A DNA stretch of 44,478 bases from a virus. How positions within the stretch are numbered: the first letter of the stretch is position 1; each line of letters opens with the position of its first letter. The stretch lies in the IMG/VR virus record IMGVR_UViG_3300029316_000009, one strand, 5' to 3'. The translations under genes and the position numbers were made by a program. Under the pieces are notes generated by a model that was given only the letters and a program-made list of their open reading frames with translations, was not told where the DNA came from and did no database searches. Positions 1-25,734 of this stretch are shown piece after piece.

Positions 1-89
1 CTTGCACCTGTCGGAGTTTATGAAGTCAATTATGATTTCGGAGACATCCTCTATGTTAGAGAAAACGACCGTGCAAGGTGGTGGCAGTA
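1..89. repeat. Terminal overlap, identical to 44390-44478 (circular assembly closure)
   Basis: Base-by-base comparison of both ends shows 89/89 identity. The portal reading frame continues across the junction. Confidence 0.95.
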
Positions 90-216
90 TGTAACTACTG
101 GCAAGGTTCCAGCATGGTTGTATTTTGTAAAGTTTGAAGGAATGACTGAGGAAGAAGCGAAAGCAATGGTCAAAGAAGCCGAGCCAAAGGAACCAACACT
201 ATTCGGAGAGGAGTAA
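1..216 (+). CDS. Portal protein, C-terminal part (continuation of the ORF starting at 43196)
   Basis: Frame 1 is open from base 1 to TAA at 214-216. It is in phase with the ORF that runs off the window end, and 1-89 duplicates 44390-44478. Confidence 0.85.
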   Translation, partial: LAPVGVYEVNYDFGDILYVRENDRARWWQYVTTGKVPAWLYFVKFEGMTEEEAKAMVKEAEPKEPTLFGEE

Positions 217-220
217 AAAG

Positions 221-307
221 ATGGCAGACAAGCCGGTAACAAGGGAAGAAAAATACCTCGCATATCTGACAGGCGAAATTCCAAAGCCAATTACAAGAGA
301 GTTTTAG
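221..307 (+). CDS. Small hypothetical protein (28 aa, MADKPVTREEKYLAYLTGEIPKPITREF)
   Basis: ATG lies 7 nt after GAGGAG, directly downstream of the portal stop. It is below the ORF-track size cut-off. Confidence 0.4.
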   Translation: MADKPVTREEKYLAYLTGEIPKPITREF

Positions 308-326
308 TGAATTAAGTAAAAAAAGC

Positions 327-349
327 GGAGAGGATTAAAACTCCTCTCC
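327..349 (-). terminator. Rho-independent terminator, strongest in the minus direction
   Basis: GGAGAGGA (327-334) pairs with TCCTCTCC (342-349) around a 7-nt loop. An A-run at 318-326 gives a U-tract on the minus transcript, downstream of the 367-594 gene. Confidence 0.7.
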
Positions 350-366
350 ACTTTGCAATAACATTA

Positions 367-594
367 TTAACAGCCAGAATCTTCTCGCTTGGATACAGCA
401 AATGTCCTTACTGTATTTACGCCAGGGACATTGCCATCATCAATGCACTTAGCCATGTGAAGCATAGATATAATTTGTGATGAAGACGGATGTTCTTTAC
501 CACAGTTTGGGCAAATTACCTTTTCCGTGTTAATTTGCTCGTTTACGTAATAGTTGCAATTACAAGTGCAATAAATTTTCAGTTTTAAAAACAT
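367..594 (-). CDS. Small zinc-ribbon-like protein (75 aa), reverse-strand moron between portal and minor capsid gene
   Basis: AAGGAGGTG lies 6-7 nt upstream of the ATG. Cys motifs CTCNC and CPNCG are present, with its own extended -10 (TGCTACAAT, 620-628) and a terminator at 327-349. Confidence 0.75.
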   Translation of the reverse strand: MFLKLKIYCTCNCNYYVNEQINTEKVICPNCGKEHPSSSQIISMLHMAKCIDDGNVPGVNTVRTFAVSKREDSGC

Positions 595-619
595 TTTGTG
601 ACACCTCCTTAATAGGTTG

Positions 620-628
620 ATTGTAGCA
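620..628 (-). promoter_or_regulatory. Extended -10 element TGCTACAAT for the 367-594 gene
   Basis: Plus-strand ATTGTAGCA at 620-628 reads TGCTACAAT on the minus strand, about 25 nt upstream of the RBS. Confidence 0.45.
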
Positions 629-736
629 TATTTTTAAAACATGTACCACAACATTTATCGAAAGAGGTGATATATTATACTTAGTCCTGAATATTTACGA
701 CAAATTACAGAGGGCAGTGAACAAATTGCTGAAGAA

Positions 737-1906
737 TTGCACCAGTATATCATCTCTGAGATCGTATCACGGATGATGGCAAGAATCGGCAGGGGCGAGG
801 ACTATATTCTGACCAATGCTGATGCGTGGAGAATCAGAACGTTACAGGAATCCGGTGAACTGTTAGAAGACATTCTGGCAGAACTATCCAGATACACCAA
901 ACGTGAGCAACAAGAGCTTCTTGAAGCGTTTGAAGATGCCGGAATCACTGCAATGGAGTATGATGATAAGGTATATAAGGCGGCAGGATTAAGTCCTGTG
1001 CCGCTTGAACAGTCACCAACAATGATAAGACTCATGGAACGAAATATGCTTGCGACCATGGGTGAGTGGAAGAACTTCACACGGACAACCGCAAGTGCCG
1101 CTCAGAGGCTATATATCGAACAATGCGACCTTGCATATAACCATGTGATGACTGGTGCAGTTGGGTATACGCAAGCCATTAAAGAGGCAGTTAACAACGT
1201 TGTGAGTGATGGTGTTACCGTCACATATCCATCTGGTAGAAAAGACACGATTGAAACAGCGGTTGCACGTTCTGTCAGAACTGGTGTGGCACAGGCTACG
1301 GGGGATATATCCCTGAAGCGCATGGAAGAAATGGACTGGGATTTAGTTCTGGTTAGTGCTCACATTGGAGCCAGAACGGGTGACGGCGGTCAGAATCCGG
1401 GAAACCACTCATGGTGGCAAGGAAAGATATACTCTCGTTCTGGCAAGAGTAAGAAATTTCCGCCATTCTCATTGACCGGATACGGGACAGCAAGCGGACT
1501 GTCAGGGGTCAACTGTCGGCATAGCTTCGGAGCCAGTGATGGAGAATTTAATCCCTATGCGGAATTATCAGCACAGGACAAAGCCGACAAAGGCAAACAG
1601 TACGAAAAAGAACAGCGGCAACGTACTTATGAGCGAAGAATCCGCAAAACGAAGAGAGAGGTTCTTGGGCTGCAGGCAGGAGTCGACAATGCACCGAATG
1701 AAAAGGCAAAATTCGCATTGCAGCAAGACCTTGACCGGAAGTCTTATCTTTTACAGAAACAAAATGCTGCATATAAAGATTATTGCAAACGGAATGGCCT
1801 GAGGGAACTACAAGACCGACTTATGATCGCTAAGTGGAACCGCCAGAACGCCGCTAAAGCCAGAGGAGCGGCAAGACGATATAAGACAGCAAAGGGGATT
1901 GACTGA
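737..1906 (+). CDS. Minor capsid / head morphogenesis protein (Sfi11-type minor capsid protein 2, SPP1 gp7-like role)
   Basis: It sits right after the portal and carries the motifs SAHIGARTGDGG..HSWWQGKIY and GLSGVNCRHSF. The frame is open from 671 and a strong SD AGAGGTGA lies at 663-670, so the true start is probably upstream of the TTG at 737. Confidence 0.75.
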   Translation: MHQYIISEIVSRMMARIGRGEDYILTNADAWRIRTLQESGELLEDILAELSRYTKREQQELLEAFEDAGITAMEYDDKVYKAAGLSPVPLEQSPTMIRLMERNMLATMGEWKNFTRTTASAAQRLYIEQCDLAYNHVMTGAVGYTQAIKEAVNNVVSDGVTVTYPSGRKDTIETAVARSVRTGVAQATGDISLKRMEEMDWDLVLVSAHIGARTGDGGQNPGNHSWWQGKIYSRSGKSKKFPPFSLTGYGTASGLSGVNCRHSFGASDGEFNPYAELSAQDKADKGKQYEKEQRQRTYERRIRKTKREVLGLQAGVDNAPNEKAKFALQQDLDRKSYLLQKQNAAYKDYCKRNGLRELQDRLMIAKWNRQNAAKARGAARRYKTAKGID

Positions 1907-2295
1907 TGGATAGATGGGAATATTTCAATCCGAATCCTGTTAAGGATAAGAGAACAGGAGATTGCGTTGTCCGGGCAATATGCAAAGCAACCGGGTTCGA
2001 CTGGGAAACGGTATTCACCGGATTAATGATACAGGCGTGCACTCTGTCAGATATGCCAAGTGCAAATTATGTCTGGGGAGCGTACCTCTATAAGCGTGGA
2101 TACAGACGCAAACTGATTGAACAATCAGAACGATATATCTATACAGTCAACGACTTTTGTGCAGATCATCCGACCGGCACGTACATTCTCTGCATAGATG
2201 GCCATGTTGTGACGGCACAAGACGGCAAATATTTCGATACATGGGATAGCGGTAATGAAATCCCGGTATATTACTGGGAAAAGGAGAATAAATGA
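1906..2295 (+). CDS. Papain-like cysteine peptidase-fold protein (putative)
   Basis: Ordered candidate catalytic residues: Cys in RTGDCVVRAI, His in IDGHVVTA, Asp in FDTWDSG. The start overlaps the minor capsid stop (TGATG). Confidence 0.45.
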   Translation: MDRWEYFNPNPVKDKRTGDCVVRAICKATGFDWETVFTGLMIQACTLSDMPSANYVWGAYLYKRGYRRKLIEQSERYIYTVNDFCADHPTGTYILCIDGHVVTAQDGKYFDTWDSGNEIPVYYWEKENK

Positions 2296-2597
2296 GCATA
2301 TCAGAATTTATACAGATTTTCCTCTCTATCTGCGGAGGAGTGTCCATTGTCGGAGGGGCGGCAGCCGTAATCTTTAAGTGGATTACACCAGCATTCCGAC
2401 TTAATAAGCGAGTAGAAACACTGGAAGAACACGACAAGCGTGACTTTGAGAGTCTTCAGAGGATTGCAGAGCGAGATTCATTAATTCTGGAAGTGTTATC
2501 AACCATGCTGGACAGCCAGATTAGTGGGAATAATGTAGAAGAATTAAAAAAAACAAAACAGAAGCTTACAAATTATCTTGCACAGAATCAGCGTTAA
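2292..2597 (+). CDS. Membrane-anchored coiled-coil protein (hypothetical)
   Basis: N-terminal hydrophobic helix (FIQIFLSICGGVSIVGGAAAVIF) followed by a charged helical region. AAGGAG RBS. Confidence 0.6.
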   Translation: MSISEFIQIFLSICGGVSIVGGAAAVIFKWITPAFRLNKRVETLEEHDKRDFESLQRIAERDSLILEVLSTMLDSQISGNNVEELKKTKQKLTNYLAQNQR

Positions 2598-2614
2598 TTG
2601 CATTAATAAGGGGT

Positions 2615-2821
2615 ATGCTCATGAAATTATATGTGTTCACTAAGAAAGATATAGACAGATTCTTGATAGAGTGTAATTTTACACCGGACGAAGAAAGACT
2701 GTTCCGGATGAGATGTCAGGAACGCACTCTCGAATACTGTGCTGAGCAGATGAATGTGAGCATATCCACGGCGAAACGATTGAGCCGGAGGGTAAACAAT
2801 AAAATAATTAAAGTGTGCTGA
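2615..2821 (+). CDS. Small sigma-70 region-4-like HTH DNA-binding protein
   Basis: FTPDEERLFRMRCQERTLEYCAEQMNVSISTAKRLSRRV resembles a sigma region 4 / LuxR-type HTH. The likely real start is the second ATG at 2621. Confidence 0.55.
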   Translation: MLMKLYVFTKKDIDRFLIECNFTPDEERLFRMRCQERTLEYCAEQMNVSISTAKRLSRRVNNKIIKVC

Positions 2822-2828
2822 TACGATA

Positions 2829-2864
2829 AAAGCCCGGGATTAATTTCCTAGGGCTTTATTTTTG
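2829..2864 (+). terminator. Rho-independent terminator
   Basis: AAAGCCC (2829-2835) pairs with GGGCTTT (2851-2857), followed by ATTTTTG. Confidence 0.65.
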
Positions 2865-2894
2865 TTGACAGATATATTTTTTATATGCTATATT
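2865..2894 (+). promoter_or_regulatory. Strong sigma-A-type promoter with no downstream ORF
   Basis: TTGACA (2865-2870), an 18-nt spacer, then TGcTATATT (2886-2894). Confidence 0.6.
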
Positions 2895-2900
2895 TAATAT

Positions 2901-2982
2901 ACCTAAATTATTTAGGTGTGAATTGAAAAGTGTTTATTGTTAGTAGGACACAAAAAAGAGGTAAATTTATACCTCTTTTTTT
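2901..2982 (+). ncRNA. Candidate small RNA of about 80 nt (orphan promoter-to-terminator unit)
   Basis: The predicted start is near 2901. There is a 5' hairpin ACCTAAAT-T-ATTTAGGT (2901-2917) and a 3' terminator AGAGGTA/TACCTCT (2957-2976) plus T6. No ORF with an RBS lies inside. Confidence 0.4.
2957..2982. terminator. Bidirectional rho-independent terminator
   Basis: The stem 2957-2963 / 2970-2976 is flanked by A6 upstream and T6 downstream. It also lies directly after the stop of the minus-strand 2981-3298 gene. Confidence 0.75.
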
Positions 2983-3298
2983 AATCCACATAATACAATT
3001 CTATTGGCTCACTATTTTTAAATAAAATATGGTATGCTCCAGAAAATACAACTGTTGAAAAATTAATAGCTGCGTTTTCGTCCCAAGAATACTTGCTTTC
3101 TTCAAAACTCTTGTCAGAAGAATTTTCGATCATATTTTCCACATAATCTTTTATAGGGTCTTCATCATCTTCTGTCCATTCTTCCGAGTATTCACATTGA
3201 AATTGTTCTTTGCATACTTCGTAAATCGGTTCTTTTGTCCCCTCATTGTAACTCTGGGACATTGTAATCTCGTGATAATATATTTTTTTCATGTTCAT
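2981..3298 (-). CDS. Highly acidic small protein (about 103 aa), unknown function
   Basis: GGAGG precedes the second ATG, giving a likely start at 3292. D/E-rich runs such as EEWTEDDEDPIKDYVENMIENSSD. It has its own consensus promoter with operator repeats. Confidence 0.75.
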   Translation of the reverse strand: MNMKKIYYHEITMSQSYNEGTKEPIYEVCKEQFQCEYSEEWTEDDEDPIKDYVENMIENSSDKSFEESKYSWDENAAINFSTVVFSGAYHILFKNSEPIELYYVD

Positions 3299-3352
3299 TC
3301 CTCCTGATCTGCTCCATGTCTTGGGCTGTACTGTTCTTCTTTAACTGTCTTT

Positions 3353-3398
3353 ATTATACATCTATGTGCGTTATATGTCAAGCGTATATGTGCGTTAT
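3353..3398 (-). promoter_or_regulatory. Consensus promoter of the acidic-protein gene with two operator repeats
   Basis: On the minus strand, TTGACA (3376-3381), 17 nt, TATAAT (3353-3358). Plus-strand repeats TCTATGTGCGTTAT (3361-3374, in the spacer) and TATATGTGCGTTAT (3385-3398, just upstream of -35). Confidence 0.7.
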
Positions 3399-3400
3399 TT

Positions 3401-3580
3401 TTATTTTTTTTCTAGCCTGTTGAGTTCTGACAGAACAACATCTCGAATAAAGGCACTATTACTCTTGCCGAGGTCGAGCTTTTCAATCCTCTCTTTAGTT
3501 CCTTTTGGAAAGACAATGTTTAGTCTATAGTTATTGTTCTCATACTTTCTTACCGCTTTTTTCTGTGCTTCTGTTGCCAT
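3401..3580 (-). CDS. Ribbon-helix-helix (Arc/CopG-like) DNA-binding protein, 59 aa
   Basis: MATEAQKKAVRKYENNNYRLNIVFPKGTKERIEKL..SNSAFIRDVVLSEL fits the RHH beta-alpha-alpha pattern. AAGGAGGG RBS. The longer track ORF (to 3631) runs into the promoter. Confidence 0.75.
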   Translation of the reverse strand: MATEAQKKAVRKYENNNYRLNIVFPKGTKERIEKLDLGKSNSAFIRDVVLSELNRLEKK

Positions 3581-3602
3581 GTTAATCCCTCCTTTTTCCT
3601 CA

Positions 3603-3631
3603 ATTATAAATCTATGTGCGTTATTGCACAA
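3603..3631 (-). promoter_or_regulatory. Promoter of the RHH gene carrying the same operator
   Basis: On the minus strand, TTGTGC (3626-3631), 17 nt, TATAAT (3603-3608). The third copy TCTATGTGCGTTAT (3611-3624) sits in the spacer, at the same relative position as in the 3353-3381 promoter. Confidence 0.65.
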
Positions 3632-3708
3632 TACTTTTTTGAGACTTTTTTGAACTTTTTAGATTGATACATCTATGCAAAAATATAATCAGAAAGGTGG
3701 TGCATAAG

Positions 3709-4179
3709 ATGGCATTATATAACAATCCTTATCAATATAGTTTTGGCGTTCCGGGGCAAATGAATCAATTTCAGCAGCAACCTGTCCAGATGCCAGTTCA
3801 ACCAGTACAGCAACCCCAACAGAATAACAATGGTATTTTGTGGGTGTCTGGCGAAGTCGGCGCAAAATCCTATCTGGTAGCACCCGGGACAAGCGTTTTA
3901 CTGATGGACAGTGAGAGCGAAAAGTTCTACATAAAATCCACAGATGTATCCGGCATGCCGCAGCCACTGCGAACATTTGAATACCACGAGATAGGCTCTC
4001 AGATGCCGCCTAAACAGCCTGTTCAGAACATGGACAGTAAATATGTCACCAGACAGGAATATGACGATTTAAAGGGCAAATACGAAGCTATCATAAACCG
4101 ATTAAATTCATTTTCTGAACCTGTTAGAACTAATACTGTACAGGAGCCAGCAATCAAGGGAGGAAATGCAGATGAGTAA
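3709..4179 (+). CDS. Q/P-rich hypothetical protein (156 aa)
   Basis: AAAGGTGG RBS before the ATG at 3709. N-terminal QQQPVQMPVQPVQQPQQNNN low-complexity tract, then a globular segment. TATAAT at 3684-3689. Confidence 0.7.
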   Translation: MALYNNPYQYSFGVPGQMNQFQQQPVQMPVQPVQQPQQNNNGILWVSGEVGAKSYLVAPGTSVLLMDSESEKFYIKSTDVSGMPQPLRTFEYHEIGSQMPPKQPVQNMDSKYVTRQEYDDLKGKYEAIINRLNSFSEPVRTNTVQEPAIKGGNADE

Positions 4180-4393
4180 TCCATTATTTAACGCACTTGG
4201 CGGTGGGATGACACAGGGAAATGGGCCAATGCAGATGATGCAGCAGTTTATGCAGTTTAAACAGAATTACAAAGGAAACCCAAAAGAAGAAGTCCAGAAA
4301 ATGTTGCAGTCTGGAAAGATTTCTCAACAGCAGCTTAACCAAGTTCAGCAGATGGCAGGGCAGTTTCAGAATCTGCTGAAAGGAATGAAATAG
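4166..4393 (+). CDS. Q/M-rich small hypothetical protein
   Basis: GGAGG RBS. The likely start is the second ATG at 4172 (MSNPLFNALGGG...), which overlaps the upstream stop. Confidence 0.65.
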   Translation: MQMSNPLFNALGGGMTQGNGPMQMMQQFMQFKQNYKGNPKEEVQKMLQSGKISQQQLNQVQQMAGQFQNLLKGMK

Positions 4394-4447
4394 TACATTA
4401 CAATCTGGCCAGATTGATGTAAATACACAATAAAGGAGATTATAACT

Positions 4448-5227
4448 ATGGATGGAAATTATAGCTTAGCAGACATTGCCGCTGCTACTGGAAATGGCAG
4501 AAATAATGACGGCATGTTTGGTGGAGATGGTGCATGGTGGCTTATCGTGCTTTTCTTGTTCGTATTCTGCGGATGGGGAAACAACGGATGGGGCAATAAC
4601 GGCAATGGCGGCGGATATGCAGCCACAGCAGCTACTCAAGCAGACATTCAGAGAGGATTTGATAACTCCGCAGTAATCAGCAAACTTGACGGAATCAATA
4701 GCGGCCTGTGTGATGGCTTTTATGCCATGAATAACGGTATGCTTACCGGATTCAATGGAATCAACACAAACATCATGCAGACCGGCTTTGGAATCCAGCA
4801 GGCAATCAATGCCGATACTGTAGCCAATATGCAGAATACAAACGCATTGCAGGCGCAGCTTGCAAACTGCTGTTGTGAAACCAGGGAAGCTATCCAGGGC
4901 GTGAACTACAACATGGCGCAGAACACCTGTGCATTGCAGAACACCATGAACAGCAACACAAGAGATATCATTGACAATCAGAATGCTGGAACCAGAGCGG
5001 TTCTTGATTACCTGTGTGCAAAAGAAAACGCAGATTTAAGAGATAAAGTTCAGAAACTTGAGCTTGCTGCTTCTCAGTCTGCGCAGAATGCTTACATTGC
5101 GGCAAATCAGGAAGCGCAGACGGCAGAACTGATTCGCAGAATAAGTCCTATGCCTGTGCCATCCTACGTAGTCCCAGCGCCATATCCATATTCTGGATGC
5201 GGATGCAACACCGGATGTAATTGCTGA
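4448..5227 (+). CDS. Membrane-anchored N/Q/G/C-rich protein with a Cys-rich C-terminal tail (259 aa)
   Basis: AAGGAG RBS. TM segment AWWLIVLFLFVFCGWG flanked by Gly/Asn repeats (GWGNNGWGNNGNGGG), then a long N/Q/A-rich region with CCC and spaced Cys. It ends PAPYPYSGCGCNTGCNC. Confidence 0.75.
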   Translation: MDGNYSLADIAAATGNGRNNDGMFGGDGAWWLIVLFLFVFCGWGNNGWGNNGNGGGYAATAATQADIQRGFDNSAVISKLDGINSGLCDGFYAMNNGMLTGFNGINTNIMQTGFGIQQAINADTVANMQNTNALQAQLANCCCETREAIQGVNYNMAQNTCALQNTMNSNTRDIIDNQNAGTRAVLDYLCAKENADLRDKVQKLELAASQSAQNAYIAANQEAQTAELIRRISPMPVPSYVVPAPYPYSGCGCNTGCNC

Positions 5228-5291
5228 TAACTTCATATCGAGAGTATCTTTCGATTGATTCGGATGTCGGCTTATGCCGTTTTACACAGAG

Positions 5292-5316
5292 GGGCAGGCT
5301 GAGACCTGTCCTTTTG
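5292..5316 (+). terminator. Rho-independent terminator
   Basis: GGGCAGG (5292-5298) pairs with CCTGTCC (5305-5311, one G-U pair), followed by TTTT. Confidence 0.6.
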
Positions 5317-5338
5317 TGATATGAAAGGGGTAAAAATT

Positions 5339-5761
5339 ATGGCAGAATTTACAAATGTAGCTGCTCAGACTGTAGCAGCAAATGGAAACGTAGTATTTTC
5401 AAACACAGCAGTCAAAGGTTCTAACTGTATTCAGCACAGAGAGGGAAGTGGAATTATAACTCTAAGAGGACTGACTAATCAGTGCAAAGCGAGATTCTTT
5501 GTGGATTTTTCTGGTAATATCGCAATTCCAACAGGCGGTACTGTTGAAGCTATTTCTCTGGCTATTGCAATCTCTGGCGAACCGGTTCTTTCTTCTCAGA
5601 TGATTTCCACACCGGCAGCAGTAGACCAGTATAACAATGTGTCCTCTGGCATCTATATTGATGTACCTCGCGGATGTTGCGTTAATATCGCAGTAGAGAA
5701 TACAAGCGATCAGGCAATTTCTGTTGCGAACGCAAATATTGTCGTGACCAGAGAAGCATAG
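5339..5761 (+). CDS. Beta-rich hypothetical protein, possibly a BclA-C/C1q-TNF-like jelly roll
   Basis: The ATG at 5339 follows AAAGGGG. The alternating hydrophobic beta pattern (NVVFSNTAV..IITLRG..ARFFVDFSGNIAI..IYIDVPRGCCVNIAVEN..ANIVVT) resembles exosporium BclA/BxpB C-terminal domains. This rests on pattern memory only. Confidence 0.6.
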   Translation: MAEFTNVAAQTVAANGNVVFSNTAVKGSNCIQHREGSGIITLRGLTNQCKARFFVDFSGNIAIPTGGTVEAISLAIAISGEPVLSSQMISTPAAVDQYNNVSSGIYIDVPRGCCVNIAVENTSDQAISVANANIVVTREA

Positions 5762-5772
5762 GAGGTGTGATT

Positions 5773-6327
5773 ATGAGAGACATTAAAGACTTATGTGCAA
5801 GAATTGAAGACGAACTGTCCAAAATCGCTGACAGTGGGTTGACTACTGGAAATCTGGAAATGACATACAAGCTGATTGATATGTACAAAGATATAAAGAA
5901 CACACAGTACTGGGACAAGAAAGTGGAGTATTACAACACTGTCCTTGATGAGATGCGTAGCGGATACAATGACGATTACAGCGAGCGTGGAAGAAAACAT
6001 GACAGCATGGGGAGATACAGCTCAAGTGACGGCAGAATGATGCCAGATTACGACCGGGGCAATTCTTATGCCAGACGTGGTGAACATTATGTCAGAGAGC
6101 ATTACAGCCGCTCTGATGGGCGAGACGCTTACGATGACTACATGACGCAGAAACAGAGCTATCGTTCCGAAAAATCTGAGGACTGCAAAAGAAAGATGCT
6201 TGCCGCTCTGGAAGAACATCTGGACGAACTCACAACAGAAATGAGCGATATGTCCAAGGACGCAGAATGCCGGGAAGAACGTGATCTTGTTAAGAGATAC
6301 GTTGAGAAATTAAGAAATATGCTTTGA
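5773..6327 (+). CDS. Hypothetical protein with helical ends and an R/D/S/Y-rich low-complexity centre
   Basis: GGAGG lies 7 nt before the ATG at 5773. The central tract is GRYSSSDGRMMPDYDRGNSYARRGEHYVREHYSRSDGRDAYDDY. Confidence 0.7.
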   Translation: MRDIKDLCARIEDELSKIADSGLTTGNLEMTYKLIDMYKDIKNTQYWDKKVEYYNTVLDEMRSGYNDDYSERGRKHDSMGRYSSSDGRMMPDYDRGNSYARRGEHYVREHYSRSDGRDAYDDYMTQKQSYRSEKSEDCKRKMLAALEEHLDELTTEMSDMSKDAECREERDLVKRYVEKLRNML

Positions 6328-6333
6328 TTTGAC

Positions 6334-6376
6334 AAAATGTGGGGACAACTTTTTTAAAAGAATGTGATACTATAAT
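6334..6376 (+). promoter_or_regulatory. Putative late promoter: AAAATGTGGGGACAA box plus TATAAT
   Basis: The 15-mer at 6334-6348 is identical to 41009-41023. Exactly 22 nt downstream is TATAAT (6371-6376). It lies upstream of the tRNA, scaffold and capsid genes. Confidence 0.55.
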
Positions 6377-6662
6377 CTTGCAAGGAATGGTGAACCTTGT
6401 AGGGCTTGCTGATTAGAAGTTTTTGCTTTCTTTTTCGTTTCATGTCCTCCTTTCTTTGCGAATATGCCCTTAAGAGAAACAGATGAAGCAGATTTGAGCG
6501 GAATCTGGAGGTTGAAAAGCGGATGCAATTTCCGGCATATTCATTAGTCAGTTTGACTGACTGGTAACACCTCCTCATGAATAAAACAACATCTCCGTGG
6601 AAGTCGGATAGTGGCAGGCATAACACGATAAATACCTTGCTAACCCGGGAATCCGGGTTAAT

Positions 6663-6735
6663 GGAAATATAGCTCTAGTGGTAGAGCAATATCCGCATAG
6701 GATATTGGTTAGGGGTTCGATTCCCCTTATTTCCT
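6663..6735 (+). tRNA. tRNA with CAU anticodon (Met or Ile2-type), atypical anticodon loop
   Basis: Manual fold: acceptor GGAAATA/TATTTCC, D arm GCTC-TAGTGGTA-GAGC, anticodon arm ATATC-CGCATAG-GATAT, variable TGGTT, T arm AGGGG-TTCGATT-CCCCT. No encoded CCA. Position 33 is G instead of the near-universal U. Confidence 0.7.
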
Positions 6736-6810
6736 TACCTTGCCAGTGGTCTAACTGGCTTAATCCATTTACCTGCGGCGGCAGGTCAATAAACACGACC
6801 AGGAGGATAT

Positions 6811-7443
6811 ATGCAGAAACTTATTGACACATTAAAATCATTTGGAATTGAAATCCCGGAGGACAAACAGGCAGATATAAAGAAAGCACTTTCTGAGAAT
6901 TACAAGAATGCAAAGGAAGTTGCAAAAACTCTGTCAAAAGTTGAGGGAGAACGAGACGACTGGAAAGAACGCGCAGAGACAGCAGAAAAGACCCTGAAAG
7001 GTTTTGATGGTATCGACCCGGCGAACATTCAGACAGAGCTTGCTGGATGGAAGAAGAAAGCTGAGGACGCAGAGAAAGAATTCAATGCAAAAATCTACGA
7101 CCGTGATTTCTCAGACGCTCTGAAAGCGGCACTCGACGATGTTAAGTTTTCCAGCGAAGCAGCTAAGAAGTCAGTCATGGCAGACATTAAAGAAGCCGGA
7201 TTGAAACTGAAAAACGGTAAAATCCTTGGGCTGAATGATCTGATTGAGCAGATGAAACAGTCTGACGCATCCGCTTTCGTGGATGAATCTCAGCAGCAGG
7301 CTCAGCAGAATCAGGCAAGGTTTACTACTCATGTTGGACAGCAACAGACACCGGGAAGCATGACAAAGAAAGATATCGAAGCGATCAAAGACCCGTCCGA
7401 GAGGCAGGCTGCAATTGCTCAGAATATCCAGTTATTCCAGTGA
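6811..7443 (+). CDS. Scaffolding protein (GP20-type)
   Basis: It sits immediately upstream of the major capsid gene. Charged coiled-coil sequence (KVEGERDDWKERAETAEKTLKGF...) and a strong RBS. Confidence 0.8.
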   Translation: MQKLIDTLKSFGIEIPEDKQADIKKALSENYKNAKEVAKTLSKVEGERDDWKERAETAEKTLKGFDGIDPANIQTELAGWKKKAEDAEKEFNAKIYDRDFSDALKAALDDVKFSSEAAKKSVMADIKEAGLKLKNGKILGLNDLIEQMKQSDASAFVDESQQQAQQNQARFTTHVGQQQTPGSMTKKDIEAIKDPSERQAAIAQNIQLFQ

Positions 7444-22422: not shown

Positions 22423-23997
22423 TTAATTATTCTTCTGGATTTTTGGGAAAATATCTAGCTGGAAACCAATCTCGTTGCCTTTCCCATAAGCGTTTTTAGT
22501 ATCTTTTGAGTAGGCAACCTTTTCAATCAAACTTTTAAGCATTTTATTCTTGGATTCTGTGTCAAGGCTCCAATAGTTATCAAGTAGCTCTTCACAGCGC
22601 GGGATAAAATCCGACTGTTGTTTTATAATGTTCTCGTAATGTTTGATTTCTTCTTTTAATTTTTCTATAGTATCGGAGCATGACTGGATAGATGCAGATA
22701 TTGTTTTGGCACGTTCAAGGAAAACCTCAGTGGTATAGATACCCTGTTCGAGTAGGTCATATTGTTTTGCTTTTTGGGCGTTTAAGCTTTCCAGCTCGTT
22801 TTCTTTTTCATGTATGAGATTTTGTTTAGAAATTATTGTTAAATCAATAGCCTGTGAAGATGTATTAATATCATTGTTTAACTTATATTTCTCCACAATC
22901 TCCCTAATTCCATCAAGCACAGCTTTTTCAACCAGAGATAACTTGCTGCTCACTGTGGGGCAAGACGTATATGGACACATGAGGGTATCTTCCTGCCCGC
23001 GCTTTTGATAAGGGCGGCGAACCATGGCGCGACCACATTTGCTGCAATAGACAATTCCGGCAAGTGGATTACGAATCGAGTTTGCTATACTAACTGGGCG
23101 AGGCGGGTTCTTTTTTCGTATTTCCTGGACGGAATTATACAGATCTTCTGATATAACAGCCGGATGTAATCCATTACAAATAAGAGTATCTTTTGATCGT
23201 GGGCGTGTCTTAATTACTTGACCAGTCTGTATAGTCTTCACTGTTTTTCTCCCATTCCATCGGATTTTCCCGATGTATACCGGATTTGTCAGAATTCCCT
23301 GTATACTGGCAGGAGTCCAGTCACCGCCCAGTGCAGATTCTATTCCCATTTCATTTAATTTCCGTGCAATCTTCGCAACTCCGATTTGTTCGCAGCCATC
23401 ACCGGCATACCAGGTGTAGATCATTTTTACAATCTCAGCTTGAGTCGGAACAGGTCGGAGAGTATAGCCTTTTTCTTTTTCGAGCTTAACTCTTTCGTAT
23501 CCGTAAGGTGGTTTGTTGCCGCAATACTTACCCTCTTTTACCGATGAGATTCTTCCGGCGTTCAGTCGGCGCTTGATGGTTTTATACTCTCTGCGGCTCA
23601 TAAATAGACCAAACTCAAAATATTCTTCATCAAATTCATTGTTTGGATCATATATTTTTGTGGGGGTAATAATTTTCGTGTCAGAATACTGGAAAGCCCT
23701 TGACACAATGCCTTGGTCAATAGTATCACCTCTGGCAAGTCGTTCAACTTCCACAACCAGAACTCCATCCCACATACCGGATTCTACCTCATGTAGAAGC
23801 TGCTGCATAACAGGACGGTCGGCGATAGTTTCTCCAGATACCACTTCGCGGTAAATTGCGCCCACAATGTACTCTTTTTTCTTTGCAAGATCTAACAGGA
23901 TCCGTTCATGTCTGGCGAGTGTTTCGCCCTCTCCGTGCGCTTCAGCTTCCCGATCGGCCCTGGATTTCCTTAGATAGATGCATACTGATTCATTCAT
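22423..23997 (-). CDS. int: Large serine recombinase (integrase)
   Basis: N-terminal resolvase domain (YLRKSRADRE with the catalytic Ser context, VVEVERLARGD), a recombinase domain, a Cys-rich zinc ribbon (CSKCG..CPYTSC) and a C-terminal coiled coil. 524 aa. Confidence 0.9.
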   Translation of the reverse strand: MNESVCIYLRKSRADREAEAHGEGETLARHERILLDLAKKKEYIVGAIYREVVSGETIADRPVMQQLLHEVESGMWDGVLVVEVERLARGDTIDQGIVSRAFQYSDTKIITPTKIYDPNNEFDEEYFEFGLFMSRREYKTIKRRLNAGRISSVKEGKYCGNKPPYGYERVKLEKEKGYTLRPVPTQAEIVKMIYTWYAGDGCEQIGVAKIARKLNEMGIESALGGDWTPASIQGILTNPVYIGKIRWNGRKTVKTIQTGQVIKTRPRSKDTLICNGLHPAVISEDLYNSVQEIRKKNPPRPVSIANSIRNPLAGIVYCSKCGRAMVRRPYQKRGQEDTLMCPYTSCPTVSSKLSLVEKAVLDGIREIVEKYKLNNDINTSSQAIDLTIISKQNLIHEKENELESLNAQKAKQYDLLEQGIYTTEVFLERAKTISASIQSCSDTIEKLKEEIKHYENIIKQQSDFIPRCEELLDNYWSLDTESKNKMLKSLIEKVAYSKDTKNAYGKGNEIGFQLDIFPKIQKNN

Positions 23998-24093
23998 TTT
24001 ATCATTCTCCTTTTTTTACTTGTGTGATAATCCAGGAGATGATATAATTATGGTGTAGGTAAGATTTTCTCCGGATTATCTTATTTATTAAAA

Positions 24094-24130
24094 CCGGTTC
24101 CTGTTGGTCGCAGGAGCCGGCTTTTTTATT
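24094..24130. terminator. Rho-independent terminator downstream of the 24133-24678 gene
   Basis: CCGGTTCCTG (24094-24103) pairs with CAGGAGCCGG (24111-24120, one G-U pair), with T-rich flanks in both directions. Confidence 0.7.
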
Positions 24131-24132
24131 AT

Positions 24133-24678
24133 TTATTCTATTTCATCAATATCAAGAGAATATCCAAAGACTTCTCCAACATCTGTACATTTCCCTTTTA
24201 AAGTAACTGTCTCTCCTTTGGTCATGGAAGCTACTTTTGTTTTTTGTTCATCATTTTTTATGTAGCATTGAACTCCGATAATCTCAAAGTCTCCATCAGC
24301 CATCAAGTTAATATACTTTCCAGAAGCGTCAATGTTTGTAAGTTTTCCAGTAATCTCAAGATATTTATCTTTGTATTTATCAGATGCTCCCATGGCATTG
24401 TTATCAAGATCTGCCATCATATCATTAACGGAAACAGTGGTATACTCGATCGGTGCAGCTTCTTTCTTTTCTGAAGAAGTAGCCGTTGTTGCACTTTTAC
24501 CTGATTCCGAATCACTTTCACCCGCTACAGCTCCGATGATCGCTCCGACAAGGATTATCAGCACAACCCATTTGAGCTTTCCACCTTTTAATTTCTTTCG
24601 GCACTGCGGGCATACTTTAGCGTCCGCCGGAATCTCTGTTTTGCAATACTTGCATTTCTTAGTTTTCTCTGTACTCAT
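24133..24678 (-). CDS. Zinc-ribbon / single-TM / extracellular OB-like domain protein (lysogeny-module membrane protein)
   Basis: CKYCKTEI..CPQCRKKL, then the TM segment WVVLIILVGAIIGAVAG, a S/T linker and a beta-rich C-terminal domain. AAGGAGG RBS. Confidence 0.75.
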   Translation of the reverse strand: MSTEKTKKCKYCKTEIPADAKVCPQCRKKLKGGKLKWVVLIILVGAIIGAVAGESDSESGKSATTATSSEKKEAAPIEYTTVSVNDMMADLDNNAMGASDKYKDKYLEITGKLTNIDASGKYINLMADGDFEIIGVQCYIKNDEQKTKVASMTKGETVTLKGKCTDVGEVFGYSLDIDEIE

Positions 24679-25227
24679 ACTACAGTTCCTCCTTATACTT
24701 TTGAGTTGATTCTAGCACATATTGTAAAGTTTTAGAATATTTTTGTTAAAATTTTTGTTTCGAAATTTGTCGGATTTATTTAAAACAGTGTAAAAATGTG
24801 CTATTATATACATCATGTAAAGTTGTTTTTGTCTAAAAAAAGAGGCGGTATTTTGAAATTAGCCAAAAAAGTTATAATTTTTGTCGGAATAATATTGATA
24901 ATCAGTTACATAGTTCATGTTCCGAGTCGGACACACAATCTCTCATGTAAAAATTCTACGGTCAGCCTTGTCCGGCAATCTAGCAGACATTCTACAGTCA
25001 GAAGGAGCGTTCCTAACCAGATACAGATTATTTTTGTGCTGCTATACCGTATAATTCCACGTAAAATGCATTTTATATTCGATAGTGCGAATATTTTCTT
25101 TGCAATTACGCACATTCTGGTTTATCACTGGCAGTTAGCAAGGAGGGATTTGTCTGCCGATGCCGTTTTATCGTACCAAAGATAATGTAAAAGAGAACAA
25201 ATGTTTTTGGACGGTAGGAGGTATAAT

Positions 25228-25326
25228 ATGGATTACAAGAAAGAAATTATTGAAATGATACAAAAGATAGAAAACAGATGTTGGCTGAGGTCAATATACA
25301 TTTTCATAAAAACATTAATCGGTTAA
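25228..25326 (+). CDS. Small hypothetical protein (32 aa, MDYKKEIIEMIQKIENRCWLRSIYIFIKTLIG)
   Basis: GGTAGGAGG RBS 7 nt upstream, followed by the terminator at 25335-25370. Confidence 0.45.
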   Translation: MDYKKEIIEMIQKIENRCWLRSIYIFIKTLIG

Positions 25327-25334
25327 AAAGAAAA

Positions 25335-25370
25335 GCCAAGGGTTTGCGCATTGCCCTTGGCTATTTTCTT
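25335..25370. terminator. Bidirectional terminator
   Basis: GCCAAGGG (25335-25342) pairs with CCCTTGGC (25354-25361), followed by TATTTTCTT. It lies between convergent genes. Confidence 0.7.
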
Positions 25371-25734
25371 ATTTCTTTTCGTAAATTGTGTCTAAGAGTT
25401 TTTCTAAGTTATCCCATCCGGAATCATCCAGCTTTGCCAGAGCATTGATGAGACGGTATTTAAAATCATCATCACTAGACTTTAGAACATTTCCAAACAG
25501 CTTAGAAATTTCATCGTTTTTGTTCTCTGGAACGAACATACTTCCTTTTCCTGTTCTGAGCCATTCTTCACTCACTCCAAACTCTCTGCATATAGATTTG
25601 ATAACAGCATCTGTTGGATTTCTTAAACCAGTTTCATAATTAGTAATGGTATTTCCCTTTACTCCAATTATGTCTCCAAATGCTGTCTGAGTGAGCTTCT
25701 GGGATTTGCGCACTTGTTTGATTCTGTCTTTCAA
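25369..25734 (-). CDS. CI-like repressor (XRE-family HTH)
   Basis: HTH segment KLTQTAFGDIIGVKGNTITNYETGLRNP. TTG start 6 nt after GGAGGTGA, divergent from the early operon. Confidence 0.85.
   Translation of the reverse strand: MKDRIKQVRKSQKLTQTAFGDIIGVKGNTITNYETGLRNPTDAVIKSICREFGVSEEWLRTGKGSMFVPENKNDEISKLFGNVLKSSDDDFKYRLINALAKLDDSGWDNLEKLLDTIYEKK

What the first reader, a model, noticed from the sequence alone, without database searches (positions are those of the whole stretch)
2981..3631. Reverse-strand RHH regulator plus very acidic 103-aa protein, each behind a near-identical promoter carrying the same operator (Acr/Aca-like architecture)
Three copies of T[CA]TATGTGCGTTAT occur on the plus strand, at 3361-3374, 3385-3398 and 3611-3624.

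Read on the minus strand, the acidic-protein gene has a perfect TTGACA-17-TATAAT promoter with one operator filling the spacer and one just upstream of -35. The RHH gene has TTGTGC-17-TATAAT with the operator at exactly the same place in the spacer. The shared core is ATAACGCACATAGAT[GT]TATAAT. This predicts that the RHH protein autoregulates and also represses the acidic gene.

The acidic product has an estimated strong net negative charge, with runs such as EEWTEDDEDP. It has no TM segment and no obvious enzymatic motif. It is therefore a candidate DNA mimic or anti-defence protein (Ocr/ArdA/anti-CRISPR style), or an immunity-type protein, kept under tight repressor control as acr genes are by Aca proteins.

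The region looks AT-richer than its flanks by eye.
Basis: partly seen in the sequence, partly recalled or inferred. Interest (0 to 1): 0.66.

Follow-up and report, generated by a model that had tools for sequence, protein, structure and literature searches.

The report
Self-repressed accessory gene cassette in phage
A temperate gut-bacterial phage carries an 850-base insert in which a tiny repressor shuts off its own promoter and that of a very acidic orphan protein paired with a small RNA; this layout is typical of phage counter-defence loci, but the target of this one is still unknown.

Summary

The region is an ~850-bp insertion (2825-3673) in the head-gene module of a temperate Lachnospiraceae phage. 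A close relative has 50 bp at this site. Another carries a different cassette with a helix-turn-helix (HTH) regulator.

The 59-aa RHH-like protein has more than 370 homologues. In 78 distinct loci its gene is accompanied by the same operator (consensus ATAACGCACATATA), always on the gene's strand and inside the -35/-10 spacers. A paralogue with a changed beta-strand uses a changed operator in the same layout. Autorepression plus repression of the downstream gene is therefore well supported, though not demonstrated.

Behind this regulator, sister phages carry at least 17 unrelated cargo families. Most are small and acidic. One is a divergent Cas5b homologue, comparable to AcrIB3; others look like ParE toxins or GIY-YIG nucleases.

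The 103-aa acidic protein is a rare orphan with no sequence or fold match. The RNA's hairpin plus GAAUUGAAA resembles a CRISPR repeat.

An anti-defence role is plausible but unproven.

The parts
2825..3673 (.). Whole accessory cassette, an insertion relative to MT835739; the variable core is about 2861-3628
   Evidence: Relative L001 aligns to window 1-2824 and 3674-7183, with only 50 bp between. Relative L002 aligns to 1428-2860 and 3629-4053, with a different 1.57-kb cassette between.
2865..2894 (+). Promoter of the small RNA: TTGACA-18-TATATT, TG-extended, 11/12 match
   Evidence: Conserved as TTGAC(A/T)-N17/18-TGnTATATT in unrelated phages that carry the acidic gene.
2897..2981 (+). Candidate ~85-nt small RNA: 10-bp hairpin (2898-2907/2911-2920), invariant GAAUUGAAA (2920-2928), conserved UUUAUU, then the shared terminator
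   Evidence: Fold z-score -5.3. Hairpin 93.7% paired, with 2 pairs changed on both sides and U.G pairs that fit only this strand. Found next to every acidic-gene homologue of 65% identity or more, and nowhere else.
2952..2981 (.). Bidirectional intrinsic terminator shared by the acidic gene and the small RNA
   Evidence: 12-nt arms, 100% complementary, flanked by A-runs and T-runs (I3).
2981..3292 (-). Acidic 103-aa orphan protein (cargo family F2)
   Evidence: Net charge -16, pI 4.2. 55 homologues, none named. Only 16 representatives among 1.8e9 proteins. AF2 pLDDT 83.5. No fold match.
3293..3346 (-). 5' UTR of the acidic gene, with the SD sequence GGAGGA at 3304-3299
   Evidence: This UTR (AAAGACAGTTAAAGAAGAACAG...GGAGCAGATCAGGAGGAA) travels with the gene in other phages.
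3353..3381 (-). Promoter P2: TTGACA-17-TATAAT, 12/12 match
3361..3374 (-). Operator O2, inside the P2 spacer (ATAACGCACATAGA on the minus strand)
3385..3398 (-). Operator O3, 3 nt upstream of the P2 -35 and 2 nt after the RHH stop codon
   Evidence: In 61-66-aa homologues this copy overlaps the stop codon.
3401..3580 (-). 59-aa RHH-like repressor gene
   Evidence: phrog_31631, E 2e-17. More than 370 homologues. Predicted helix / extended / helix / helix. In-register weak HHalign matches to CopG, ParG, NikR and PutA.
3603..3631 (-). Promoter P1: TTGTGC-17-TATAAT
   Evidence: Read from the sequence. 95% identical to the P2 block.
3611..3624 (-). Operator O1, inside the P1 spacer

Best explanation
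This is a mobile accessory cassette inserted, in reverse orientation, into the head-gene module of a temperate Lachnospiraceae siphophage.

Proposed mechanism: when the phage genome enters a cell that has no repressor, host sigma-70 RNA polymerase fires the consensus promoter P2 and the weaker P1. This gives a burst of the acidic 103-aa protein and of the 59-aa RHH-type repressor. Transcripts from P1 also read through into the acidic gene, because no terminator separates the two genes. The repressor then binds three 14-bp direct repeats (ATAACGCACATA[GT]A). O1 and O2 fill the -35/-10 spacers of P1 and P2, and O3 abuts the -35 of P2. Binding blocks RNA polymerase and clamps both promoters to a low steady level. 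P2, with two sites, would be held more tightly than P1. This is the Aca / Reg-p576 type of negative feedback.

The payload is a linked pair: the acidic protein and a convergent ~85-nt small RNA with its own constitutive-looking promoter. The payload most likely acts on a host system early in infection or from the prophage. Counter-defence is the leading candidate, and the small RNA may act as a CRISPR-repeat decoy.

Shown here: the anatomy, the insertion, conservation of the architecture, regulator/operator co-variation, and the protein/RNA linkage.

Inferred: DNA binding, repression, timing, and any target.

My estimates: local autorepressor circuit about 0.85; payload is anti-defence about 0.45; small RNA is a repeat mimic about 0.25.
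For: The repeats are exact and unique in the 44-kb genome, so the regulon is local.

ACGCAC on the regulator's strand occurs at 8.8 per kb within -260..+80 of the gene, against 0.15 per kb elsewhere and 0.27 per kb on the opposite strand. This holds in 78 non-identical loci whose regulators are 65-100% identical, from different phages and Lachnospiraceae chromosomes. One copy always lies in the spacer of a TTGACA-type promoter upstream of the regulator, and again downstream of it.

The paralogue in L242/L255 has the strand NDRINIIFP instead of NYRLNIVFP and uses ATAATGCACTTAT six times in the same layout. NYRLNLTF goes with ...CACTTA, and RNYRLNIVFP[ND]G goes with ATTACGCACATA.

The cassette is an insertion, and the site also holds an alternative HTH cassette with an inverted-repeat operator in both of its promoter spacers.

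In 52 loci of the same phage family there are 29 different cassette contents and 17 cargo families, most of them small and acidic. One family is a full-length divergent Cas5b (TIGR01895, E 3.5e-19). A Cas5 homologue is a validated type I-B anti-CRISPR, AcrIB3.

RHH regulators of this kind are documented: Aca14 and Reg-p576.

The small RNA is present at all 21 IMG/VR hairpin-bearing hits, and all 21 lie next to the acidic gene. Natural CRISPR repeats have the same stem-loop plus (U)GAAUUGAAAC design. Racr RNAs sit directly behind their own promoters and next to acr genes.
Against: There is no experimental evidence of binding or repression.

The RHH fold is not confirmed by Pfam, by PDB sequence search or by Foldseek on the monomer model.

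The acidic protein matches no known Acr, Ocr or ArdA, nor any other structure. No validated Acr sits next to this regulator.

The same regulator/promoter module also drives ParE-like toxin pairs and GIY-YIG nucleases. It is therefore a general cargo controller, and guilt by association is weak.

The phage is temperate, so the cargo could instead serve the lysogen.

For the RNA, no CRISPR array with its hairpin was found and there was no Rfam CRISPR-DR hit. The resemblance is limited to about 9-13 nt plus geometry and was noticed post hoc.
Confidence: 0.55

Rival explanations
1. Prophage moron. The cassette is expressed at a low, autoregulated level from the prophage. The acidic protein, with its RNA, would benefit the lysogen through superinfection exclusion, defence against other phages, or modulation of host physiology. 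It would not counter host defence.
For: The phage is temperate, with a serine integrase, a CI-like repressor and a Sie-like gene. The cassette has its own sigma-70 promoters and terminator, lower GC content and reverse orientation inside a late operon, which is the classic moron anatomy. The regulator also drives ParE-like and GIY-YIG cargo elsewhere. One homologue context is next to the lysis genes at a prophage end.
Against: Sister cassettes carry a solo Cas5b homologue of the AcrIB3 type. The cargo set is dominated by tiny acidic proteins, typical of inhibitors rather than effectors. There is no defence-family signature in the acidic protein.
Confidence: 0.25
2. The RHH protein is a general developmental regulator of the phage, and the acidic protein is a host-takeover factor such as an anti-sigma or polymerase modifier. 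On this view it is not a local cargo circuit.
For: The cassette lies next to a sigma-70 region-4-like 68-aa gene. Distant homologues of the acidic protein sit in early operons after Cro-like HTH genes.
Against: The operator occurs nowhere else in the 44-kb genome, even with 2 mismatches. A close relative lacks the whole cassette, so it is dispensable. The cargo is freely exchanged.
Confidence: 0.1
3. Toxin-antitoxin-like addiction module. The acidic protein would be a toxin, neutralised or silenced by the convergent small RNA (type I/III style) and kept low by the RHH repressor.
For: The gene and RNA are convergent and share a bidirectional terminator, as in par/Fst and the Bacillus prophage type I systems (from established knowledge). 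The protein and RNA are strictly linked. The gene sits behind a tightly controlled consensus promoter.
Against: The protein is soluble, very acidic and 103 aa long, without a membrane segment or any toxin family match. Outside the terminator, the RNA shows no complementarity to the mRNA beyond shuffled controls and no conserved pairing site. The RHH protein has no C-terminal tail for toxin neutralisation.
Confidence: 0.07

Closest known systems
Aca14, the RHH-type anti-CRISPR-associated regulator of Pasteurella multocida (NAR 2026, PMC13551039)
   Same: A small RHH protein encoded with counter-defence cargo. Its binding sites overlap the promoter of its own operon and of a neighbouring operon. 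It replaces the usual HTH Aca; here an HTH cassette occupies the same site in a sister phage.
   Different: Aca14 recognises an AT-rich inverted repeat over the -10. Here the sites are 14-bp direct repeats in the -35/-10 spacer and upstream of the -35. Aca14 comes from Proteobacteria and this family from Lachnospiraceae phages. No validated Acr lies next to this regulator.
Reg-p576, the RHH repressor of the establishment (anti-restriction) regulon of Bacillus plasmid p576 (PMC8708921)
   Same: Firmicutes. An RHH repressor with direct-repeat operators placed beside strong promoters. It represses its own promoter and the promoters of other genes, giving a transient burst after DNA entry. Its own promoter is controlled less tightly; here P1 has one site and P2 has two.
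   Different: Reg-p576 is on a conjugative plasmid, not a phage. Its operators are dual heptamers (TTATCCCnnTTATCCC) outside the promoter core. Its cargo includes ArdC, while the cargo here is an orphan.
Classical acr-aca operons (Aca1/Aca2, HTH)
   Same: A strong promoter, a small variable cargo gene or genes, and a conserved autorepressor whose operator lies in the promoter. Insertion in the head-gene region of temperate phages, as in Pseudomonas Mu-like phages (from established knowledge).
   Different: The regulator comes first and has its own promoter. The fold is RHH, not HTH. The cargo has a separate duplicated promoter. The cargo is unvalidated.
Racr / solitary repeat units (RacrIF1, RacrIC1; PMC10651486)
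   Same: A small RNA directly behind its own promoter, not next to cas genes, beside a small candidate inhibitor gene. It has a hairpin followed by a handle-like GAAUUGAAA, as in type I-C repeats such as ...GGGGTGCGTGAATTGAAAC.
   Different: Likeness to a real host repeat is not shown. The stem is AT-rich. The RNA is convergent with the protein gene rather than co-transcribed with it.
AcrIB3, a Cas5 homologue acting as a type I-B anti-CRISPR (bioRxiv 10.1101/2023.06.24.545427)
   Same: Sister cassettes under the same regulator (L026, L027, L036, L037, L040, L044, L074) carry a solo, divergent, full-length Cas5b homologue.
   Different: It is not present in this window, and its function is untested.

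Membership tests
Ribbon-helix-helix (RHH/MetJ-Arc) DNA-binding superfamily | Strand-helix-helix unit of about 45 residues | tested here: inconclusive
   The AF2 monomer model gives H4-17, extended 18-27 (YRLNIVFP), H28-34 and H41-58, with pLDDT 78. The order is right, but the strand can form only in a dimer, and Foldseek on the monomer found nothing.
Ribbon-helix-helix (RHH/MetJ-Arc) DNA-binding superfamily | Significant sequence or profile match to an RHH family or a solved RHH structure | tested here: not met
   No Pfam hit at E<=1. No PDB hit at E<=10 with the sequence or the profile. Third-party names are 'PutA RHH', 'plasmid RHH' and 'antitoxin'.
Ribbon-helix-helix (RHH/MetJ-Arc) DNA-binding superfamily | Base reading by the N-terminal strand; G-x-S/T/N turn before helix B | tested here: met
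   GKSNS precedes helix B (sequence). Changes in the strand (NYRLNIVF to NDRINIIF or NYRLNLTF) go with changed operators in an unchanged layout. This evidence is indirect.
Aca-type regulators (anti-CRISPR-associated) | Operator overlapping the promoter that drives the regulator and its cargo | tested here: met
   O1 and O2 lie within the 17-nt spacers of P1 and P2, and this is conserved in 78 loci.
Aca-type regulators (anti-CRISPR-associated) | Conserved regulator next to variable small cargo genes | tested here: met
   29 cassette contents and 17 cargo families behind the same regulator in one phage family.
Aca-type regulators (anti-CRISPR-associated) | Genetic linkage to at least one validated anti-CRISPR | tested here: not met
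   No cargo matches a known Acr in Pfam, PHROGs or NCBIfam. There is only a Cas5b homologue analogous to AcrIB3. No dedicated Acr library was available.
Aca-type regulators (anti-CRISPR-associated) | Demonstrated repression of the promoter | not testable with these tools
   Needs EMSA and reporter assays.
Aca14 family | Homology to WP_005725436 and an inverted repeat over the -10 | tested here: not met
   The operators here are direct repeats in the spacer. Homology was not tested because no sequence was held.
Known anti-defence proteins / DNA mimics (Ocr, ArdA, Acr families) | Sequence or fold similarity | tested here: not met
   Pfam, PHROGs and NCBIfam gave nothing. Foldseek against PDB and BFVD gave a best E of 0.3-0.4. 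No match in GenBank phages. Only the strong negative charge is shared.
Racr / solitary CRISPR repeat unit | Sequence and structure likeness to the host's CRISPR repeat | tested here: inconclusive
   The hairpin plus GAAUUGAAA matches the design and handle of natural repeats. No array carries this hairpin, and there is no Rfam CRISPR-DR hit. Host arrays could not be fetched.
Racr / solitary CRISPR repeat unit | Own promoter directly upstream, no cas genes nearby, located in an accessory or anti-defence locus | tested here: met
Type II toxin-antitoxin (RHH antitoxin + toxin) | Co-transcribed pair with a recognisable toxin, and an antitoxin with a neutralising tail | tested here: not met
   The acidic protein matches no toxin family. 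The RHH protein ends with helix B. The cargo has its own promoter.

The most novel reading that the evidence does not exclude
The acidic protein and its convergent small RNA form a two-component, protein-plus-RNA anti-CRISPR module. The RNA would be a repeat decoy for type I-B/I-C Cas5/Cas6/Cas7, and the protein an inhibitor of the same system. Both would be delivered by a previously undescribed RHH 'Aca' family that marks a hypervariable counter-defence hotspot in temperate Lachnospiraceae phages of the human gut. At least 17 cargo families there, including a Cas5b-derived inhibitor, would then be new anti-defence genes.
Probability: 0.22. Interest if true: 0.82.

Novelty: new variant of a known kind. 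Interest (0 to 1): 0.6.

Why it matters
Almost nothing is known about how phages of gut Lachnospiraceae overcome host immunity. This regulator and its 14-bp operator form a compact, easily searched marker. In the loci fetched here it already points to at least 17 unrelated cargo families at one hotspot, and to further cargo in other phages.

If the regulator behaves like an Aca, it can serve as a guilt-by-association anchor for finding anti-defence genes in an abundant but poorly studied group of gut phages.

The strict pairing of an acidic orphan protein with a promoter-proximal small RNA that looks like a CRISPR repeat is a concrete, testable candidate for a combined protein/RNA inhibitor.

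The regulator/operator variants (ATAACGCACATA, ATAATGCACTTA, ATTACGCACATA) also offer a natural series for studying RHH specificity.

Tried and rejected
- **Chance repeats:** rejected.
- **Known family for the acidic protein:** none found in Pfam, PHROGs or NCBIfam. A profile search of 1.8e9 representatives gave only 16 relatives. Foldseek against PDB and BFVD, and GenBank phages, gave nothing.
- **RHH confirmation:** PDB sequence and profile searches and Foldseek on the monomer model gave nothing. Only weak HHalign support remains. The regulator is absent from GenBank phages and PLSDB plasmids.
- **Known RNA families in the cassette:** none.
- **CRISPR arrays carrying the small RNA's hairpin plus handle:** none in the metagenome collection. 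A looser scan found many arrays ending in GAATTGAAAC. Outside the handle they share at most 10 of 23 upstream bases with the RNA.
- **A covariance model built from GC-rich I-C repeats:** not built. It would penalise the AT-rich stem and so would not be informative.
- **Small RNA as antisense regulator of the acidic gene's mRNA:** duplex energies were no better than shuffles and the pairing sites were not conserved.
- **A target of the RNA's 3' segment in the phage genome:** none.
- **Type II TA reading:** rejected on anatomy.
- **Comparison with Aca14:** its sequence could not be obtained.
Full report
**1. The observation**

The 44.5-kb window holds no other copy, even with two mismatches. Exact matches never arose in 100 dinucleotide shuffles.

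On the minus strand, P2 is a perfect TTGACA-17-TATAAT (3381-3353). P1 is TTGTGC-17-TATAAT (3631-3603). The two promoter/operator blocks are 95% identical over 22 nt.

The genes are as described:
- a 103-aa protein at 3292..2981, with net charge -16, pI 4.2 and GGAGGA 6 nt upstream;
- a 59-aa basic protein at 3580..3401, with GGAGGG 6 nt upstream.

The region has 27-37% GC against 42-50% around it, and its skews are inverted.

**2. What the region is**

The window is a nearly complete temperate siphophage. It has a serine integrase at 22423-23997, CI-like and Sie-like genes, a Sak4-like protein, a helicase, terminase, and a minor and a major capsid gene.

The finding lies in the head-gene module, between a 68-aa sigma-70 region-4-like gene (2615-2821) and a phrog_21718 gene (3710-4179). 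It points against the flow of those genes.

The closest GenBank relative (MT835739, about 93-95% identical in the flanks) has 50 bp where the window has 2825-3673. A second relative (MT839401) has a different 1.57-kb reverse-strand cassette at the same place. That cassette has two near-identical TTGACA-type promoters with the inverted repeat TCACTCAxTGAGTGA in the spacer. It also has an HTH_19/HTH_3 protein as the last gene of the first operon.

The finding is therefore a mobile cassette at a hotspot that accepts alternative self-regulated cassettes.

**3. The regulator and its operator**

The 59-aa protein has more than 370 homologues. Its exact sequence occurs on 256 contigs.

I fetched 105 loci that encode it. 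Their hosts, where named, are Lachnospiraceae and relatives such as Blautia, Dorea, Roseburia and Falcatimonas.

In 78 non-identical loci, the core ACGCAC occurs at these densities:
- 8.8 per kb on the regulator's strand within -260..+80 of the gene;
- 0.15 per kb elsewhere on that strand;
- 0.27 per kb on the opposite strand in the same interval.

The consensus is ATAACGCACATATA.

The layout is constant even where the regulator is only 65-84% identical and sits in unrelated 55-80-kb phages or in chromosomes. One to four direct copies lie upstream of the regulator gene, with one of them in the spacer of a TTGACA-N17-TATAAT promoter. Immediately after the stop codon, often overlapping it, the same promoter-plus-operator block appears again and drives the next gene.

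Variants co-vary with the operator:
- regulators with the strand NYRLNLTF use ATAACGCACTTA;
- those with RNYRLNIVFP[ND]G use ATTACGCACATA;
- a paralogue with NDRINIIFP (L242, L255) uses ATAATGCACTTAT six times in the identical layout.

This is the strongest available evidence, short of an experiment, for three points. The protein binds these repeats. It reads them with the predicted N-terminal strand. It controls both its own promoter and the cargo promoter. A site in the -35/-10 spacer implies repression by occlusion.

The operator is absent from the rest of the phage genome, so the circuit is local.

**4. Is it an RHH protein?**

Probably, but it is not formally filed as one. Pfam, NCBIfam and PDB searches fail, and Foldseek on the monomer model finds nothing.

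In favour:
- the AF2 model has helix / extended YRLNIVFP / helix / helix;
- a GKSNS turn precedes the last helix;
- depositors' names for homologues say RHH or antitoxin;
- the strand co-varies with the operator.

**5. The cargo**

In 52 loci of the same 45-kb phage family, the segment between the regulator and the sigma-like gene has 29 different contents drawn from 17 unrelated protein families. Most are small and strongly acidic: 57 aa at net -12, 90 aa at -17, 161 aa at -15, 107 aa at -18, and others. Several end in poly-Glu tails. Almost none has a Pfam or PHROG match.

One family (230 aa, in seven loci) is a full-length but divergent Cas5b. It matches TIGR01895 at E 3.5e-19 but below the curated cut-off, and Cas_Cas5d weakly. 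A solo Cas5 homologue, AcrIB3, is a validated type I-B anti-CRISPR, and orphan viral cas genes mark anti-defence clusters.

In other phages, however, the same regulator/promoter module drives a ParE-like toxin with an acidic partner and GIY-YIG nucleases. The module is thus a general controller of accessory cargo. The association with counter-defence is suggestive, not specific.

**6. The acidic protein**

It belongs to a rare orphan family. There are 55 homologues at 90% clustering, and only 16 representatives among 1.8 billion proteins. It is absent from GenBank phages.

The invariant block CEYSEEWT.D..DPIKDYVEN.IEN forms a loop and a helix in a confident model (pLDDT 83.5; long beta-hairpin, helix, small sheet). 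This fold has no match in the PDB or BFVD.

Distant homologues sit in early operons behind Cro-like genes, in runs of small genes, or alone beside the lysis genes. In 80-kb phages the gene follows two other cargo families of the hotspot, in the order 58 aa, 95 aa, 103 aa.

**7.

The 120 bp beyond the acidic gene's stop codon encode a candidate small RNA on the + strand. Its elements are:
- a TG-extended promoter, TTGACA-18-TATATT (2865-2894);
- a 10-bp hairpin starting at the predicted transcription start (2898-2920);
- an invariant single-stranded GAAUUGAAA (2920-2928);
- a conserved UUUAUU;
- the bidirectional terminator shared with the acidic gene (2952-2981).

The unit is conserved behind acidic-gene homologues of 65% identity or more in unrelated phage contexts that lack the RHH regulator. 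The hairpin keeps 93.7% pairing, with two pairs changed on both sides. Its U.G pairs fit only the + strand.

In IMG/VR, 21 of 47 hits to TTAGGTGNGAATTGAAA carry the hairpin arm, and all 21 lie next to the acidic gene. The other 26 are chance hits inside coding sequence. Among all loci fetched, the unit occurs only with this gene.

The RNA shows no meaningful complementarity to the gene's mRNA outside the terminator.

Its design, a stem-loop followed directly by (U)GAAUUGAAA, is that of CRISPR repeats. An example is the type I-C repeat GTCGCACCCCTCACGGGGTGCGTGAATTGAAAC, found in arrays fetched here. Viral solitary repeat units behind their own promoters, next to acr genes, are known RNA anti-CRISPRs.

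Against this reading:
- no array with this hairpin was found;
- no Rfam CRISPR-DR model matches;
- outside the handle, identity to natural repeats is at background level.

I treat this as a lead with roughly 25% probability.

Sister cassettes contain further repeat-like units. L048 and L066 have promoter-proximal units ending in GGATTGAAAC/T. L035-type cassettes have two copies of a unit whose reverse complement reads GTTTAGTAGTCCCATATTGGAATGTAAAAAG. I did not follow these up.

**8. Comparison with known systems**

The circuit works like an Aca-controlled acr locus. It also works like the Reg-p576 establishment regulon of Bacillus plasmids, where an RHH repressor with direct-repeat operators controls its own promoter more loosely than the strong cargo promoters.

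An RHH-type Aca (Aca14) that represses its own and a neighbouring operon was described in 2026.

This case differs in several ways:
- the operators are direct repeats inside the promoter spacer;
- the regulator is placed first and has a duplicated promoter;
- the hosts are gut Lachnospiraceae phages;
- the cargo is unvalidated;
- the cargo gene is coupled to a small RNA.

It fails the one feature that defines Aca membership by usage, which is linkage to a validated Acr. I therefore describe it as working like an Aca, not as being a member of that family.

**9. Verdict**

The regulatory interpretation is well supported by comparative evidence. The anti-defence role of the acidic protein is plausible but unproven; I put it at about 0.45.

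The finding is a new variant of a known kind. It has practical value as a marker for a rich accessory or counter-defence hotspot, and it adds an unexplained protein/RNA pair.

Noticed in passing
window 6459-6543 (+) and 6663-6735 (+): A RAGATH-21 RNA (Rfam RF03097, 80.5 bits, above the gathering score) and a tRNA-Met gene lie in the non-coding gap between the head genes. The same RAGATH-21 is present in sister phage L026.
   Followed up: no
L002 (MT839401) 1434-3001: The same hotspot holds an alternative cassette. It has two near-identical TTGACA-type promoters with the inverted repeat TCACTCAxTGAGTGA in the spacer, a 119-aa protein with a poly-Glu tail followed by a 59-aa HTH_19/HTH_3 protein, then 106-aa and 97-aa genes. 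This is a textbook acr-aca-like layout with an HTH in place of the RHH.
   Followed up: partly
L026, L027, L036, L037, L040, L044 (about 1-1.9 kb after the RHH gene); L074 about 1284 nt after the RHH stop: A solo 229-230-aa divergent Cas5b homologue is the last gene of some cassettes under the same RHH/operator module. It matches TIGR01895 at E 3.5e-19 over its full length, below the cut-off. It is analogous to the Cas5-derived AcrIB3.
   Followed up: partly
L035/L041/L046/L047/L061, L026/L036/L040, L048, L066: distal ends of the cassettes: Other cassettes end with repeat-like non-coding units. There are two copies of TTTTTAC[GA]TTCCAATATGG..CTACT (reverse complement GTTTAGTAGTCCCATATTGGAATGTAAAAAG, like Clostridial I-B repeats as I recall them). 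There are TTCCACAATGGGGCTATTA units beside the Cas5b gene. There are also promoter-proximal units ending in GGATTGAAAC/T. These could be solitary CRISPR repeats or mini-arrays.
   Followed up: no
L007 and L012, about 60-190 nt upstream of the acidic-gene homologue: A second, divergent promoter-proximal unit: a hairpin with compensatory changes (TCCGGAA/TTCCGGA against GCTCAGAA/TTCTGAGC) followed by CGGATTGAAAT/C.
   Followed up: no
L096, L098, L110 (and L103): first genes after the RHH gene: Cargo here is a 79-aa ParE-like protein (PF05016, E 2.5e-4, just below the cut-off) followed by a 61-70-aa acidic protein ending in INWD. L073, L075 and L076 carry GIY-YIG nucleases (PF01541, E 6.7e-7) behind the same promoter/operator block.
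   Followed up: partly
L117, 486 nt after the RHH stop: A second, diverged copy of the regulator (MGKTPEYTKKAVNNYREKFDFIQVRFPKGTRERLEERG...) lies downstream of the first in a Lachnospiraceae MAG.
   Followed up: no
window 2615-2821 (+): The gene flanking the hotspot encodes a 68-aa protein with weak sigma-70 region-4 likeness (Pfam E 0.006; phrog_1190 E 2.7e-6). It is followed by a terminator that is conserved in all cassette-bearing relatives.
   Followed up: no
window 22423-25734: Lysogeny module: a serine integrase (phrog_95, E 9e-107), a Sie-like protein (phrog_8545) and a CI-like repressor. The window looks like an almost complete temperate phage genome.
   Followed up: partly
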